From IMG/VR virus record IMGVR_UViG_3300027766_000001: a DNA stretch of 64,000 bases; one strand, written 5' to 3'. Source of the DNA: a virus (lineage: Duplodnaviria; Caudoviricetes). Numbering within the stretch: the stretch's first letter is position 1; every line of letters begins with the position of its first letter. The notes beneath the pieces are model-generated. The model had not been told where the DNA came from and made no database searches. It worked only from the letters and a program-made list of their open reading frames with translations. Made by a program: the position numbers and the translations under genes. Below are positions 7,493-23,745 of this stretch, one piece after another.

Positions 7493-7907
7493 ATTGGCAC
7501 GGGTGGTTTGTGTGATAGAGTGCAAAACAGCTGACGAGCTGTTAAAGCAACATTGTGCCAATGAAAACAAAAGTTGGAACATCACGTTTGACGACCTGAT
7601 GAATGCGGTCACGTTAGTCATGGAAGGGAAACATCGGTCTGCCTATGTAGCCATCGAGGAAGCCATTGGCATGCCATTGTTTCACCCCCTGCACTACAAC
7701 AACGACACATTCTCTCAACCGGCGATCGACCTGGTCGACGGTATGGCGATGGCGCTCAAACATGCAATGCCCAGGGTGCACCCGAATAAAGAAAACATCA
7801 TCGTTCGCTGTAACTACTTACAGGTGACCGACAAGTGGTTTGTATTCGACGTGCTTTTACAAGAACCAGCTCTAGATGAGGGGAAAGTAACCGTTTATCA
7901 CTTCTAA
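7464..7907 (+). CDS. Hypothetical protein, probable paralogue of upstream gene
   Basis: GGAG SD before ATG 7464; shares FS..(V/I)DL pattern with 7139 gene. Confidence 0.7.
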   Translation: MQLTSNPTTELARVVCVIECKTADELLKQHCANENKSWNITFDDLMNAVTLVMEGKHRSAYVAIEEAIGMPLFHPLHYNNDTFSQPAIDLVDGMAMALKHAMPRVHPNKENIIVRCNYLQVTDKWFVFDVLLQEPALDEGKVTVYHF

Positions 7908-7993: not shown

Positions 7994-8734
7994 ATGAAAC
8001 CAATTCAGCGCATCCTGTTGGCATTTATCCTGACCTTGTTGTCAGTCGTTACAACTACCGCTGTGGCCTCAACCGCCACCAAGCAAGTTTCCTTTAACCA
8101 GGCTGGCTTCGACAAGTACAAGAAAGTACTGTATCGCGTAAGCCAAGAAACCGGCGAGTCAGCAACGACGCTTGCTGCATACTCCTCCATTGAAACAAAC
8201 ATGCGTGCAGACGTGTGTAACCGATCGGGCAGTGGTGCCTGTGGGTTAACCCAGTTCCTGCCGGGAACGTGGAATGCCATGTTGAAACAACATCACCGCA
8301 AGTATGGCTTGAGTAAAAACGTATCTCGTTCTAATGCTTACGCTAACCTGGTCATGACGGCCGAGTACATCAAGTTGAACCGTGCGTTCCTTGAGAAAGC
8401 GTTAAAACGAGATGTCAGCCCCTCTGAAGTTTACCTGGCACATGCATTAGGCCCGGGCAATGCCCTGAAGGTCTTACGTGCTAATCCGAGTAAGAAGATC
8501 ACCGCGGTACTCAACGTACACCGGGGAAATAACAACCTTCTCTACTCCAAAGGTAAAGCTCTTACCGTGGCCCAGTTTAAAGCCAACATGCAACGAAAGT
8601 TCAGCGTTCACAGCAGTACGTACCGCCCGGCTGTGAACCAGTATGCCTTAAACCAGATGATGAGCGACCCACAACGTGGTCTCGACCATCTCATTGCTCA
8701 GGTATCGACGATCCCTGGTGTGCCGTCTTTGTAA
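7994..8734 (+). CDS. Lytic transglycosylase (SLT/lysozyme-like) with N-terminal signal peptide
   Basis: MKPIQRILLAFILTLLSVVTTTAVA signal; catalytic IETN, GACGLTQF..TW, YLAH..GPG motifs of the SLT family. Confidence 0.85.
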   Translation: MKPIQRILLAFILTLLSVVTTTAVASTATKQVSFNQAGFDKYKKVLYRVSQETGESATTLAAYSSIETNMRADVCNRSGSGACGLTQFLPGTWNAMLKQHHRKYGLSKNVSRSNAYANLVMTAEYIKLNRAFLEKALKRDVSPSEVYLAHALGPGNALKVLRANPSKKITAVLNVHRGNNNLLYSKGKALTVAQFKANMQRKFSVHSSTYRPAVNQYALNQMMSDPQRGLDHLIAQVSTIPGVPSL

Positions 8735-18690: not shown

Positions 18691-18732
18691 CGGCATAAGG
18701 AGTAGGGGTTCGCCCCCTACTCTTTTTTTTTT
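18691..18732 (+). terminator. Intrinsic terminator with CGGCATAAG flank
   Basis: GAGTAGGGG-TTCGC-CCCCTACTC then T tract. Confidence 0.85.
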
Positions 18733-19595: not shown

Positions 19596-21377
19596 ATGTC
19601 TGAACAACAGATCGACTTACTGCATGATGATGACGTTGAGTTCGAACCGGTCGTCATTTACAAACCCCGCATTCTTAACAAAATCAACATTGCGATCACC
19701 ACCCAACACTTTGGGGTAAAGCGTTATTCCATTGATTTCAATCGCTACCTGTCATCGATCTTCCAGACCCATCCTGACAAGTACCGTTACATCTCTGTTA
19801 AGAACATTCCGATTAAGCAGCGTCTTGATGCCGACGCCACATTAACTGGAAATGTCTCACTGTATCTCGAATACAATGAACACGGTTTTGTTGTGATCAC
19901 CGCGATGCTCACGGATTATTCGTTTGAACCAACTGATCCATTTACGTTTGTGTCATTCGATAACATCTTGGATATCGTTGTTGAGTCGTTAGAGGTTGAC
20001 GGACTGCACACACTGGTTACCGGTCATAAACCTCGTGCGGAACAACCACAAGCATCGTTGAAGCAGCTGACGCGTATTACCTTACAAGGTGCGCTCCTTG
20101 ATAAAGAAACCGCCGCGTACGATTTCCAGGTGCCAACCGGCGCAGGGTCATTTACCCTGATCGATAAAGACCATGCCAAGGTGGTACTGGATAACGTGCG
20201 TCTCTTTACCATCGATGAAGTCCACGGTCGCAAGATCGAAATCGGTGTGTCTCTGGAAGCGACATCGATCGATCAACAACTGCTGGTCACCGGTGTGCGT
20301 GTCATCGCGCCGGTCGTGTACCGTAAAGACCTGAGCCACGAGTGGGTGAAGCGTCAGACGGACACGGCTGAGTTCTTTGGCTGGGTCAGTGAAGTCGAAG
20401 CGGATGAGTCGGTGACCGTGTCACTTGATATGCCGGAAGATTACATGCTGCATCCGTATGTGTATCGTGAAGGCATGAACCATCACCCTGCCTATCCGGG
20501 TATCTGGGTAGCGTACAACAACTGGCGTCTGAAAGACCGTTACGACATTCAGTTGAAGAACGGTGAACGTTGGCAGTACTATTTCCCGAACGGTGGATCG
20601 TTTGCTAAATGGACTGATGCCCACGATGGCCCACAGCGTGTAGAAGATGACGAAATCGCCATGATACGGTTAATCCCGGATGAAGAGATCACGGAGAAGT
20701 ATCACTTCAAAGGTAAAGATCGTCTGGAGCGTAACGTCAAGATGTTTGGTAATGCGCTGCCGGAAGTTGAAGAACTGGCGGATGGCACTATCAATTTCCG
20801 AAACACGTATCGTCGTCACTTCCGTGATGAGCAGATCTCCTCGCATGAAGTTCCGGGTGATGTGTTCAACAGCGGACCAACACACTACCTGATGGCACAC
20901 GAGTATACCCTGACCGAAATCCTGCACATGCCGTTTAAGGTTGGTGAACCGCTGTATAAAGCTGCGGTGCATTATCTGAAAACAGCAGTGAAGGGTAAGG
21001 TGTTCCGCGGGATGGCATTGATCCAGGATAAAACGCACGGTTACATCGGCTCCATTGATGACCATAACTTTGCGGACCCAGAGATCGACTGGGTGATCCG
21101 TCAGCTGATCAATGTGGCGAAGGAGCTGCCAGAGCGCCCTAAGGTAAAGAACGTCGGCAGTATCGGTCACGTCTCCCAGCACAACGTCGGCGAACTTGTT
21201 GATATCTTGAGCCGCCCACGTGGTAAGGACGAAGGTAAACACAACTTAAGCGGTAACGGTCGTGCGATCCCTGCCGGTGGTACTAGCCTCGGTCGTTCGA
21301 AAACCAACAAGGCGGATAAGAAAGCCGCTAAGAAAGCCAAAGTCAAAATGATGAAGGCGCAACGGGAGCAACAATGA
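19596..21377 (+). CDS. Large hypothetical protein with EF-Tu-like NVGSIGHV motif and Lys-rich tail
   Basis: AAGGA SD; 593 aa; ERPKVKNVGSIGHV near C-terminus. Confidence 0.75.
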   Translation: MSEQQIDLLHDDDVEFEPVVIYKPRILNKINIAITTQHFGVKRYSIDFNRYLSSIFQTHPDKYRYISVKNIPIKQRLDADATLTGNVSLYLEYNEHGFVVITAMLTDYSFEPTDPFTFVSFDNILDIVVESLEVDGLHTLVTGHKPRAEQPQASLKQLTRITLQGALLDKETAAYDFQVPTGAGSFTLIDKDHAKVVLDNVRLFTIDEVHGRKIEIGVSLEATSIDQQLLVTGVRVIAPVVYRKDLSHEWVKRQTDTAEFFGWVSEVEADESVTVSLDMPEDYMLHPYVYREGMNHHPAYPGIWVAYNNWRLKDRYDIQLKNGERWQYYFPNGGSFAKWTDAHDGPQRVEDDEIAMIRLIPDEEITEKYHFKGKDRLERNVKMFGNALPEVEELADGTINFRNTYRRHFRDEQISSHEVPGDVFNSGPTHYLMAHEYTLTEILHMPFKVGEPLYKAAVHYLKTAVKGKVFRGMALIQDKTHGYIGSIDDHNFADPEIDWVIRQLINVAKELPERPKVKNVGSIGHVSQHNVGELVDILSRPRGKDEGKHNLSGNGRAIPAGGTSLGRSKTNKADKKAAKKAKVKMMKAQREQQ

Positions 21378-21829
21378 TTGTAGAAACCGTTACACACTGG
21401 GCGCATGTCAAACTAACCCTGGGCGTGGATCCAACCAAGTACATTCATGTATTGGTCCCAAGTACCCCTGGTGAGGCACCCCATCTCCATTATCGCTTCA
21501 GTAAGACCGCTTCACCTACCTCGCTGTGCGCAGGCTGGTCAATCAACTACCGCGAATGTCTTGTCAGCGGTCTTGAGTTTATCTTTGATCGCAATTACCC
21601 GCAGGTCATTGATTTAATTGAAACGGTCAAAGAGTCATTGCGTCCGCTGATTGATAACAGGGTAATCATTTTGGCGTCAGACGATGCGTTTATTGAGTGG
21701 TTGAGTTGTGGGAGTGGTCGAACCATCAAATGGCATAATGGTAACAGTGCTAAAGACAGCAAGTGTCGCTATCTGCTGGTTGAGGTGTCTGAATTTACTA
21801 ACGAGCCAGAGGTAAGTGATGGTGATTAA
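21374..21829 (+). CDS. Hypothetical protein
   Basis: ATGA overlap with upstream gene. Confidence 0.7.
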   Translation: MIVETVTHWAHVKLTLGVDPTKYIHVLVPSTPGEAPHLHYRFSKTASPTSLCAGWSINYRECLVSGLEFIFDRNYPQVIDLIETVKESLRPLIDNRVIILASDDAFIEWLSCGSGRTIKWHNGNSAKDSKCRYLLVEVSEFTNEPEVSDGD

Positions 21830-22220
21830 ATCTTGCCCGTTGTGTGCTTCTTCTGCCAAGACCATTAAGTATGCGTTGGTGTTCTGGATGGTGAAGTGCA
21901 CCAGCTGCATGCTGAAGTTAAAAGACATGCACACCAGTGAAGACGCAGCGATCAAAGCCTGGAACACACGCCTCACTGATCAAGACCGCCGTAACCAGAG
22001 CAGTAAGCGTTGGAGCAAACAGGCGTTCTTTGAAATCGTGGCAACACGTACCGGTGAAGTCCTTGAGCGTTGGTTAGAGGACGACACCGATATTGCGGTG
22101 CTGGTGTGTTACGGGTTCAGCTGGGATTGTCATGATCGTGCCAAAGACTACGGTCAGGTCGATCGTTACAGCGGACGCTTAGCGGGGCCGGTTGAACTGC
22201 GTTATTACGACGAGGTGTAA
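21816..22220 (+). CDS. Lar-like restriction-alleviation zinc-finger domain protein
   Basis: KSCPLC...CTSC...SEDAAIKAWNTR matches the Lar family pattern CPFCG...C..C...EAIAAWNRR. Confidence 0.7.
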   Translation: MMVIKSCPLCASSAKTIKYALVFWMVKCTSCMLKLKDMHTSEDAAIKAWNTRLTDQDRRNQSSKRWSKQAFFEIVATRTGEVLERWLEDDTDIAVLVCYGFSWDCHDRAKDYGQVDRYSGRLAGPVELRYYDEV

Positions 22221-23560: not shown

Positions 23561-23745
23561 GCGACATCAACATCGATAGTCGCTCAAAAGAGGTGATCCA
23601 TTATCTCCCATGGGGAAGGGTTAGACTCCGGCTGCGGTTGCATGACCGTATGTGGAATTGCCACAGTCGTTAGATTTAGGCAGTCCCGCGTTCGCTTCGC
23701 CTGTAACTCAAATGCCGGAGGTAACCCCTCCGGCTTTTTATGCCG
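23561..23745 (+). ncRNA. Candidate structured RNA ending in a terminator
   Basis: Non-coding gap of about 215 nt with several hairpins, a three-way junction and terminator GCCGGAGG/CCTCCGGC. Confidence 0.35.

What the first reader, a model, noticed from the sequence alone, without database searches (positions are those of the whole stretch)
21132..21183. EF-Tu N-terminal-like motif embedded in an unrelated 593-aa phage protein
Seen: ERPKVKNVGSIGHVSQH near the C-terminus, followed by a Gly-rich linker and a Lys-rich tail. Known: EF-Tu begins ...[20 protein letters not shown]; 7 of 8 residues of NVG(T/S)IGHV match, but GKT and the rest of the G domain are absent, so this is not a GTPase. Inference: short linear mimicry of a translation factor, perhaps a decoy for EF-Tu-targeting defences or modifying enzymes, or a ribosome/RNA contact together with the basic tail.
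Basis: partly seen in the sequence, partly recalled or inferred. Interest (0 to 1): 0.6.

Follow-up and report, generated by a model that had tools for sequence, protein, structure and literature searches.

The report
EF-Tu peptide copy in phage protein
A large jumbo-phage protein of unknown function carries, in a flexible stretch near its end, a worn copy of a short piece of the bacterial translation factor EF-Tu. The same piece sits on about twenty unrelated phage proteins, so it probably has a job, but here it is partly decayed and its partner is unknown.

Summary
The motif is real: residues 513-529 of a 593-residue protein (window 19596-21377), with the core NVGSIGHV at 519-526. The protein is not a GTPase.

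As a single pairwise match to EF-Tu it is at chance level (BLASTP 21 bits). Three other results suggest it is not an accident.

1. In IMG/VR viral contigs the EF-Tu octamer occurs in 48 closed non-EF-Tu ORFs, about 18-20 unrelated families. A second EF-Tu motif gave 0 such ORFs. The reversed peptide gave 6 loci, all one family.
2. A profile built only from those other phage proteins finds this site as the one clear hit in the six-frame window (E 1.3e-5).
3. Orthologues keep different parts of the EF-Tu peptide. One lineage keeps the first half and another (Salmonella phage SA002) keeps IGHVD. Seven of 13 have lost it.

My reading, at about 0.55: this is an old, partly decayed copy of the EF-Tu first-strand/P-loop peptide. 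It sits on a low-confidence linker between a folded domain and an invariant basic helix. Whether it still acts as a mimic is untested, and it lacks the Asp that most copies keep.

This scan has reported the same peptide class twice before, on other phage DNA.

The parts
19596..21377 (+). Gene for the 593-aa protein (P0001); stop TGA at 21375-21377 overlaps the ATG of the next gene (ATGA)
   Evidence: Orthologues at 40-45% identity in Salmonella phage SA002 and Erwinia phage pEa_SNUABM_37, plus metagenomic contigs. dN/dS 0.09 against the 90%-identical P0002.
20457..20843 (+). Central domain, aa 288-416. It also occurs as a stand-alone ~100-aa phage protein and in other fusions. Function unknown.
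   Evidence: phrog_10978 E=4.8e-40. 82 cluster representatives match aa ~290-415. No Pfam family in ten relatives.
20925..21146 (+). Last folded domain, aa ~444-517, alpha-beta-beta-beta-alpha, pLDDT >90
   Evidence: AF2 model. Only weak fold matches: T7 Gp1.2 Z 5.7, HPF/RaiA Z 4-5.1, dsRBDs Z 4.2-4.7.
21132..21182 (+). EF-Tu N-terminal-like segment, aa 513-529; core octamer aa 519-526 = nt 21150-21173
   Evidence: Only PHROG hit of the C-terminal 99 aa is phrog_27465, E=0.007. Class HMM 22.8 bits. hhalign P=3.4e-7. pLDDT <50 for aa 522-531.
21186..21209 (+). Short helix after the motif, aa 531-538, shared with the P0003/P0005 lineage and absent from the other orthologues
21210..21305 (+). Gly-rich, fast-evolving, low-confidence linker, aa 539-570, with a small conserved N-G-R-x-Y/I-P element
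   Evidence: pLDDT <50 for aa 538-569. dN/dS 0.67 over aa 513-570 against P0002, with the changes lying after the motif. Alignment.
21306..21374 (+). Basic C-terminal helix, aa 571-593; the K-A-x-K-K-A-A-K-K core is invariant in all orthologues
   Evidence: invariant columns K572 A573 K575 K576 A577 A578 K579 K587. Helix 572-592 with pLDDT ~86-94. dN/dS 0.065.
21127..21198 (.). 72-nt run identical to the P0002 contig: the longest identical run in the ~3-kb alignment, lying exactly over the motif
   Evidence: 0 of 11.3 synonymous sites changed in the motif, against a gene-wide pS of 0.44. No RNA-structure signal, z=+1.35.
18697..18725 (+). Terminator-like hairpin that closes the upstream unit. 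The next strong one is at 23714-23734, so the gene lies in a unit with the genes up to ~23.7 kb.
21816..22220 (+). Lar-like restriction-alleviation gene, two genes downstream in the same unit; this neighbourhood is conserved next to the orthologue P0005
   Evidence: phrog_599 E=2.5e-14. PF14354 on the neighbour of P0005.

Best explanation
The segment is a diverged, partly decayed copy of the first strand and P-loop of bacterial EF-Tu (about residues 5-20). It belongs to a class of short EF-Tu N-terminal copies found on many unrelated phage proteins, especially in jumbo phages of Erwinia and Salmonella.

In this protein the copy has no G domain around it and cannot bind GTP. It lies in a low-confidence, probably flexible linker between the last folded domain and an invariant basic C-terminal helix, so it is exposed as a linear peptide.

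Shown here:
- the class exists and is specific to this part of EF-Tu;
- this site matches the class profile;
- the peptide is under purifying selection in one lineage of the family and lost in others.

Inferred: the family's ancestor carried a fuller copy (core plus Asp), and the peptide works by being bound or modified by whatever recognises that piece of EF-Tu. In this phage that function may be weakened, because the Asp21 equivalent is Ser.
For: 1. The class exists. The DNA pattern for N-V-G-[S/T]-I-G-H-V found 77 IMG/VR loci. Of these, 21 are long EF-Tu genes, 6 are cut by contig ends, 2 are intermediate and 48 are closed ORFs with under 60 aa of EF-Tu similarity. After masking the motif the orphans form 29 clusters, about 18 of them credible T-type proteins, and 14 of those have Asp next.
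2. The controls are clean. The reversed peptide gave 6 loci in one family. EF-Tu motif DCPGHADY gave 65 loci with 0 orphans. The copies span only EF-Tu residues ~3-48. Within families they vary synonymously.
3. Named examples exist. A 109-aa protein in 48 Erwinia, Salmonella, Escherichia, Enterobacteria and Proteus phage records, some annotated 'putative elongation factor Tu', and Erwinia phages Wellington and Kwan.
4. This site fits the class. E. coli EF-Tu aa 1-30 hits phrog_27465 at 1.3e-14. The C-terminal 99 aa of P0001 and of P0002 hit only that PHROG, at E=0.007 and 0.003. An HMM built from 18 orphan families scores P0001 at 22.8 bits; no shuffle of 2000 exceeded 6.5. In the six-frame window the same HMM gives E=1.3e-5. 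hhalign of the variant-A profile against an EF-Tu N-terminal profile gives 93% probability, P=3.4e-7.
5. Orthologues keep complementary parts. P0003/P0005 keep N-V-G-T-I (8.3 bits, p=0.001). SA002 keeps IGHVD (10.9 bits, best shuffle 3.8). P0016 has IGHFD. Lineages with the motif lie on both sides of the deepest split of the family tree.
6. Selection acts on it in one lineage. P0003 against P0005 shows 14 synonymous and 0 non-synonymous changes across 51 linker codons, against a gene-wide dN/dS of 0.18.
Against: - The pairwise similarity to EF-Tu is at chance level.
- This copy has Ser, not Thr, at position 4, and Ser instead of Asp after the core. Ser-type octamers alone are not clearly enriched in IMG/VR: 5 clusters, of which 3 look like spurious ORFs.
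- Seven of 13 orthologues have a different linker. MAFFT does not place SA002's IGHVD in register with the motif; that alignment is my own and was guided by the EF-Tu similarity.
- hhalign aligns only 12 columns.
- No partner is known for any member of the class, and the linear peptide is the buried first strand of a folded G domain.
Confidence: 0.55

Rival explanations
1. Chance resemblance. The linker holds a family-specific strand-loop-helix element that happens to share 7 of 8 residues with EF-Tu. It has no evolutionary or functional link to EF-Tu or to the phage EF-Tu-peptide class.
For: BLASTP 21.2 bits, which scales to about 1.5 such matches to EF-Tu expected in the window proteome. Nothing in PDB at E<=10. 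5.65 chance 7/8 matches expected against only 65 E. coli proteins. No Asp after the core. The motif is absent from most orthologues. Ser-type octamers are not clearly enriched. The L-P-x-[KR]-P part of the 'ERPK' flank is conserved family-wide, including in orthologues without the motif.
Against: The class HMM, built without this family, gives E=1.3e-5 in the six-frame window. phrog_27465 is the only PHROG hit out of 38,880 families. Chance does not explain why SA002 has IGHVD and P0003 has Thr at position 4, both changes towards EF-Tu. A degenerate pattern that also covers the P0003 form finds only 2 loci in all of IMG/VR: one chance hit in an iteron-like repeat and one class member.
Confidence: 0.3
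2. RNA or ribosome contact. The alpha-beta-beta-beta-alpha domain, the motif and the Lys-rich helix together bind RNA or the ribosome, with the EF-Tu-like loop contacting what the EF-Tu P-loop region contacts on the ribosome. This concerns function and could hold alongside the best explanation.
For: aa 444-517 resemble HPF/RaiA (Z 4-5.1) and dsRBDs (Z 4.2-4.7, rmsd 2.6-3.3 over 54-62 residues). The basic helix with its K-K-A-A-K-K core is invariant. EF-Tu Asp21 sits in a 23S rRNA pocket on the ribosome (PMC9825190).
Against: All Z values lie below the tool's own noise level of about 8. Foldseek finds no PDB match at E<=0.001. The domain-only fold failed, pLDDT 44. The Asp21 equivalent is missing in this copy. 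No RNA-binding family is detected.
Confidence: 0.1
3. Recent capture of host tuf DNA, or the remnant of a decayed phage-encoded EF-Tu gene.
For: Giant viral contigs do carry full-length EF-Tu-like genes: 21 loci.
Against: No nucleotide similarity to any E. coli genome's tuf at E<=10. The motif sits at aa 519 of a 593-aa protein that is conserved on both sides of it. Random truncation would leave fragments of all lengths, but only 2 intermediates were found and the G3 motif had no orphans. No tRNA genes lie next to the orphan ORFs or anywhere in the window.
Confidence: 0.03
4. A degenerate but working nucleotide-binding loop, that is, a cryptic NTPase.
For: Only the resemblance to a Walker-A strand and loop.
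Against: No GK[ST], no G3 or G4 motifs and no PF00009 hit. The segment is modelled as disordered.
Confidence: 0.01

Closest known systems
Bacterial EF-Tu (tufA/tufB; PF00009, TIGR00485), residues ~5-20: N-terminal arm, strand beta-1, start of the G1/P-loop
   Same: 7 of 8 core residues are identical, and 12 of 23 with one gap. A strand-loop-helix order follows in both.
   Different: The P-loop Lys/Thr, Asp21, the switch regions, G3/G4 and domains II-III are all absent. The segment lies at aa 519-526 of an unrelated 593-aa protein and is modelled as flexible.
Phage families phrog_27465 (59 aa), phrog_12626 (109 aa; e.g. the 'putative elongation factor Tu' of Erwinia phages ChrisDB, Huxley and Parshik and of SPN3US-like Salmonella phages) and phrog_28329; all of unknown function
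   Same: All are non-GTPase phage proteins that carry a copy of the EF-Tu N-terminal strand and P-loop. P0001's C-terminal region hits phrog_27465. Their hosts, Erwinia and Salmonella, are those of P0001's nearest isolate relatives.
   Different: Those are small proteins with an exact N-V-G-T-I-G-H-V-D(-H) core, and often the first helix too. Here the copy is degenerate (Ser for Thr, Ser for Asp), lies in the C-terminal linker of a large multidomain protein, and is lost in most orthologues.
Gol peptide of T4 gp23 (from my own knowledge, and named in earlier scan note e1-4035658)
   Same: A short phage-encoded peptide whose biological meaning lies in an interaction involving EF-Tu during phage-host conflict.
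   Different: Gol is a piece of the capsid protein that binds EF-Tu and activates the Lit protease. It does not copy EF-Tu. No such interaction has been shown here.
Target site of the Salmonella Rhs toxin TreTu (ADP-ribosylates EF-Tu Asp21 in the P-loop; PMC9825190)
   Same: It shows that the peptide T-I-G-H-V-D-H-G-K is a real target of conflict enzymes. Most class members keep that Asp.
   Different: TreTu needs folded, GTP-bound EF-Tu. P0001 has Ser at the Asp position. No link between TreTu-like enzymes and phage defence was tested.

Membership tests
Translational GTPase (PF00009 GTP_EFTU) | G1 P-loop GxxxxGK[ST] | tested here: not met
   The sequence after the core reads S-Q-H-N-V-G-E, with no GK[ST].
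Translational GTPase (PF00009 GTP_EFTU) | Rest of the G domain (G2-G5), detectable by profile | tested here: not met
   No PF00009 hit at E<=1. No EF-Tu among 82 hits in 1.84 billion representatives. No PDB hit at E<=10.
Phage EF-Tu N-terminal peptide copies (phrog_27465 / phrog_12626 type) | Profile match to the family | tested here: met
   phrog_27465 E=0.007 for P0001 and 0.003 for P0002, in each case the only PHROG hit for the C-terminal region. Independent class HMM: 22.8 bits, E=1.3e-5 in the window. The match is marginal in absolute terms.
Phage EF-Tu N-terminal peptide copies (phrog_27465 / phrog_12626 type) | Exact core N-V-G-T-I-G-H-V followed by Asp | tested here: not met
   Ser replaces Thr and Ser replaces Asp. 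P0003 has 6 of 8 core residues. SA002 keeps I-G-H-V-D only.
Phage EF-Tu N-terminal peptide copies (phrog_27465 / phrog_12626 type) | EF-Tu similarity limited to the N-terminal ~45 residues, inside a non-GTPase protein | tested here: met
   BLASTP aligns EF-Tu residues 1-23 only. Class members align within EF-Tu residues 3-48, with one reaching 1-62.
Phage EF-Tu N-terminal peptide copies (phrog_27465 / phrog_12626 type) | Purifying selection on the peptide | tested here: inconclusive
   P0003 against P0005: 6 synonymous and 0 non-synonymous changes in 18 motif codons. P0001 against P0002: identical even at the DNA level. But 7 of 13 orthologues have lost the motif.
dsRBD / HPF-RaiA-like RNA or ribosome binders | alpha-beta-beta-beta-alpha (or beta-alpha-beta-beta-beta-alpha) fold with a significant structural match | tested here: inconclusive
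   The topology is present at aa 452-509. Z is only 4.2-5.7. Foldseek finds nothing at E<=0.001. The domain-only model failed.

The most novel reading that the evidence does not exclude
The EF-Tu strand/P-loop peptide is a portable short linear motif that phages attach to many unrelated proteins. It engages a host or rival factor that recognises this piece of EF-Tu, for example a defence or toxin enzyme aimed at the P-loop, or a factor that handles nascent or unfolded EF-Tu. P0001 would be a working member: the peptide hangs on a flexible arm next to a basic helix and acts as a decoy or docking tag early in infection, in a unit that also encodes a Lar-like anti-restriction protein.
Probability: 0.2. 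Interest if true: 0.8.

Novelty: new variant of a known kind. Interest (0 to 1): 0.5.

Why it matters
Mimicry of short host peptides is well documented for eukaryotic viruses and hardly at all for phages.

The controls run here show that one particular piece of EF-Tu, and not another equally conserved piece, recurs on about twenty unrelated phage proteins. It is under protein-level selection there. I found no paper describing this, although some GenBank records label the small proteins 'putative elongation factor Tu'.

This locus adds three things:
- a case on a large multidomain protein;
- an evolutionary series within one family, running from near-complete copy to half copies to loss;
- a clean pair of natural variants, with and without the peptide, for experiments.

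If a partner is found, it would reveal either a new EF-Tu-directed host defence or toxin, or a new way for phages to interfere with translation. If there is none, the locus remains a useful negative control for the class.

Tried and rejected
- **Host tuf capture.** blastn of 161 nt around the motif against 5,426 E. coli genomes found no tuf match at E<=10.
- **tRNA-cluster hitchhiking** (tufB lies after tRNA genes). There are no tRNA genes next to 37 orphan loci, apart from distant ones in two, and none in the window.
- **Truncated pseudogenes of phage EF-Tu genes.** The break points all fall at EF-Tu residues ~21-62, many copies are internal or C-terminal, and the G3 motif has no orphans.
- **RNA element under the 72-nt identical run.** The fold z-score is +1.35.
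- **Other copies nearby.** None in the window, and none in phages SA002 or pEa_SNUABM_37 at up to 2 mismatches. An out-of-frame HMM hit at 7592-7786 is chance.
- **Fold assignment of the whole protein.** Foldseek PDB found nothing at E<=0.001. BFVD returned only relatives. ESM Atlas gave TM <=0.35. VIA-wide gave Z <=5.7.
- **Folding aa 365-593 alone.** This gave pLDDT 44 and was unusable.
- **More variant-A orthologues.** IMG/VR holds none: the pattern scan found 2 unrelated loci and the relatives scan found one more variant-B orthologue and one short form. A word search on aa 500-593 found only P0001 and P0002.
- **Literature.** Searches for EF-Tu mimicry or fragments in phages, for the nonamer itself, and for the relatives' names gave nothing on this feature.
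- **Complex prediction.** Not run, because I name no partner.
- **Whole genome.** Not held for this window.
Full report
**What is there.** The window comes from a jumbo phage. The collection lists the protein on a 280-kb contig, and its neighbours include SbcC-like, thymidylate synthase, NAD-ligase, RNA-ligase, depolymerase and virion genes. ORF 19596-21377 (+) encodes 593 residues. The core NVGSIGHV at 519-526 matches EF-Tu residues 13-20 in 7 of 8 positions. No P-loop Lys/Thr follows and Pfam finds nothing. The protein is not a GTPase.

**The protein.** The nearest isolates are Salmonella phage SA002 (43% identity) and Erwinia phage pEa_SNUABM_37 (40%). With metagenomic sequences there are 13 full-length orthologues. 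An AlphaFold2 model (mean pLDDT 84) gives beta-rich N-terminal domains and a small central domain (aa 288-416, phrog_10978). That central domain is widespread as a stand-alone ~100-aa phage protein. The model ends in a last folded domain with alpha-beta-beta-beta-alpha topology at about aa 444-517. After it come the motif (pLDDT <50 for 522-531), a short helix (531-538), a low-confidence Gly-rich stretch (538-569) and a confident basic helix (572-592). The K-A-x-K-K-A-A-K-K core of that helix is invariant in every orthologue. Fold searches gave no convincing match: Foldseek found nothing at E<=0.001, and VIA gave Z <=5.7 to T7 Gp1.2, HPF/RaiA and dsRBDs, below the tool's noise level. The gene lies between terminator-like hairpins at 18697 and 23714. 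Its stop overlaps the next start, and a Lar-like restriction-alleviation gene lies two genes downstream. That neighbourhood is kept beside orthologue P0005.

**Is the match more than chance?** Taken alone, no.
- BLASTP against E. coli EF-Tu gives 12/23 identities, 21 bits and E=0.009 for that one pair. That scales to about 1.5 expected over the window proteome.
- phmmer against the PDB, which holds many EF-Tu chains, finds nothing at E<=10.
- Comparing the window proteome with only 65 E. coli proteins, shuffles give 5.65 matches at >=7/8, while 2 were observed.
- There is no nucleotide similarity to E. coli tuf.

I scanned IMG/VR for the DNA pattern of N-V-G-[S/T]-I-G-H-V.
- It found 77 loci. 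Of these, 21 are long EF-Tu genes, 6 are cut by contig ends, 2 are intermediate, and 48 are closed ORFs whose similarity to EF-Tu covers under 60 residues.
- The reversed peptide, with the same composition and degeneracy, gave 6 loci, all one family.
- The equally conserved EF-Tu motif DCPGHADY gave 65 loci with no orphans.
- With the motif masked, the orphans fall into 29 clusters. About 18 are credible Thr-type proteins of 60-445 residues, with the peptide at N-terminal, internal or C-terminal positions, and 14 of them have Asp next.
- The copied part spans EF-Tu residues ~3-48 and no more.
- Family members differ synonymously across the peptide, so the constraint is on the protein.
- tRNA hitchhiking and truncated pseudogenes do not explain this.
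- PHROGs already holds such families. E. coli EF-Tu residues 1-30 hit phrog_27465 at 1.3e-14 and phrog_12626 at 3.4e-6.
- phrog_12626 is a 109-aa protein found in 48 phage records: Erwinia 22, Salmonella 22, Escherichia 2, Enterobacteria 1 and Proteus 1. Some are annotated 'putative elongation factor Tu'. Another family sits in Erwinia phages Wellington and Kwan. These are jumbo phages of the same hosts as P0001's relatives, and they share other genes with this window.
- I found no paper on this class.
- Two earlier reports of this scan describe the class on other DNA. My scans reproduce their main claim independently.

**Does P0001 belong to the class?** In favour:
- Its C-terminal 99 residues hit one PHROG of 38,880, phrog_27465, at E=0.007 (P0002: 0.003). 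Orthologues without the motif hit nothing comparable.
- An HMM built from 18 orphan families, none related to P0001, scores the linker at 22.8 bits. The best of 2000 shuffles scored 6.5. It is the one clear hit in the six-frame window, E=1.3e-5.
- hhalign of the variant-A profile against an EF-Tu N-terminal profile gives P=3.4e-7 over 12 columns.
- A degenerate pattern that also covers the P0003 form finds only two loci in all of IMG/VR, so the chance rate is low.

Against:
- This copy is Ser-type and lacks the following Asp.
- Ser-type octamers alone are not clearly enriched.

**Orthologues.** The motif is not family-wide.
- P0001/P0002 have the near-complete core.
- P0003/P0005 have N-V-G-T-I-A-H-L, with Thr as in EF-Tu, followed by the same short helix.
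- SA002 has I-G-H-V-D, with Asp as in EF-Tu. It scores 10.9 bits against the class HMM, with the best shuffle at 3.8.
- P0016 has I-G-H-F-D.
- Seven others have only G-x-G-[IVL] at that place.

So different lineages keep different halves of the EF-Tu nonamer. Together they cover all nine residues, as expected if an ancestral full copy is decaying. A caveat applies: MAFFT does not put SA002's pentamer in register with the motif. That alignment is mine.

Trees of the N-terminal, middle and C-terminal parts disagree with each other (P0003 and P0005 carry different middle domains). Motif-bearing lineages lie on both sides of the deepest split, so modules have been exchanged.

Selection is uneven. 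P0003 against P0005 shows 14 synonymous and 0 non-synonymous changes over 51 linker codons. In P0001 against P0002, the part after the motif evolves fast (dN/dS 0.67 over aa 513-570), while the motif is identical even at the DNA level.

**Verdict.** At about 0.55, this is an old, diverged copy of the EF-Tu first-strand/P-loop peptide, of the kind that many phages carry, exposed on a flexible arm and partly decayed in this family. Chance resemblance stays a serious rival at about 0.3.

The mechanism is not shown for any member. The one published enzyme I found that acts on this peptide, TreTu, ADP-ribosylates Asp21 but needs folded GTP-bound EF-Tu (PMC9825190). P0001 has no Asp there. I therefore put the chance that this copy is a working mimic at about 0.2. 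The RNA/ribosome reading rests on weak fold matches and the basic helix only.

Noticed in passing
L023:3053-3634 (-), L071:3289-3870 (+): A 194-aa prophage-type protein joins EF-Tu residues 1-62 (P-loop changed to G-G-K-A-K) to a complete YbcO nuclease domain (PF07102, E=3.5e-44).
   Followed up: partly
L022:379-705 (+) and L057:3117-3503 (+): Two unrelated small EF-Tu-copy genes (109 aa and 129 aa) occupy the same place in related ~245-kb Erwinia jumbo phages: about 1.5 kb upstream of a homologue of window gene 7994-8734 and, at least in L057, after an SbcC-like gene. The matching stretch of this window (4.6-7.9 kb) has no such copy.
   Followed up: partly
window 21127-21198 against L130: The longest identical DNA run (72 nt) between this phage and the 90%-identical P0002 contig lies exactly over the motif. 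Just downstream, homology ends and the next gene differs: a GNAT acetyltransferase in L130, a 151-aa hypothetical protein here. It could be a recombination joint or a nucleotide-level constraint. There is no RNA-fold signal.
   Followed up: partly
window 21306-21374, and all orthologues: The basic C-terminal helix with a K-A-x-K-K-A-A-K-K core is invariant in all 13 orthologues, although the linker before it is the most variable part of the protein. The short 333-aa relatives in RAY-like phages (L136) also end in a Lys/Arg-rich tail.
   Followed up: partly
window 20457-20843: The central domain (phrog_10978) is a widespread phage module: 82 cluster representatives, many of them stand-alone ~100-aa proteins. 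It has no Pfam family and no fold match. P0003 and P0005 are near-identical elsewhere but carry different versions of it (mosaicism).
   Followed up: partly
IMG/VR loci L006, L008, L018, L030, L041, L046, L054, L077 and others: Twenty-one viral contigs, many of 200-600 kb, carry long, apparently full-length EF-Tu-like genes with intact G1 and G3 motifs. Several share an unusual N-terminal extension (G-W-Q-P). Whether they are phage-encoded or host contamination was not examined.
   Followed up: no
window 21374-21829 and 21816-22220: The stop of the 593-aa gene overlaps the start of a 151-aa gene with no family match (ATGA). That gene in turn overlaps a Lar-like restriction-alleviation gene. 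This order is kept beside P0005 (L132).
   Followed up: no
L134:13150-13350: The one chance hit of the degenerate pattern lies in an iteron-like array of GTCCCACTAAC repeats, downstream of an 802-aa primase/helicase-like ORF. It is probably a replication origin.
   Followed up: no
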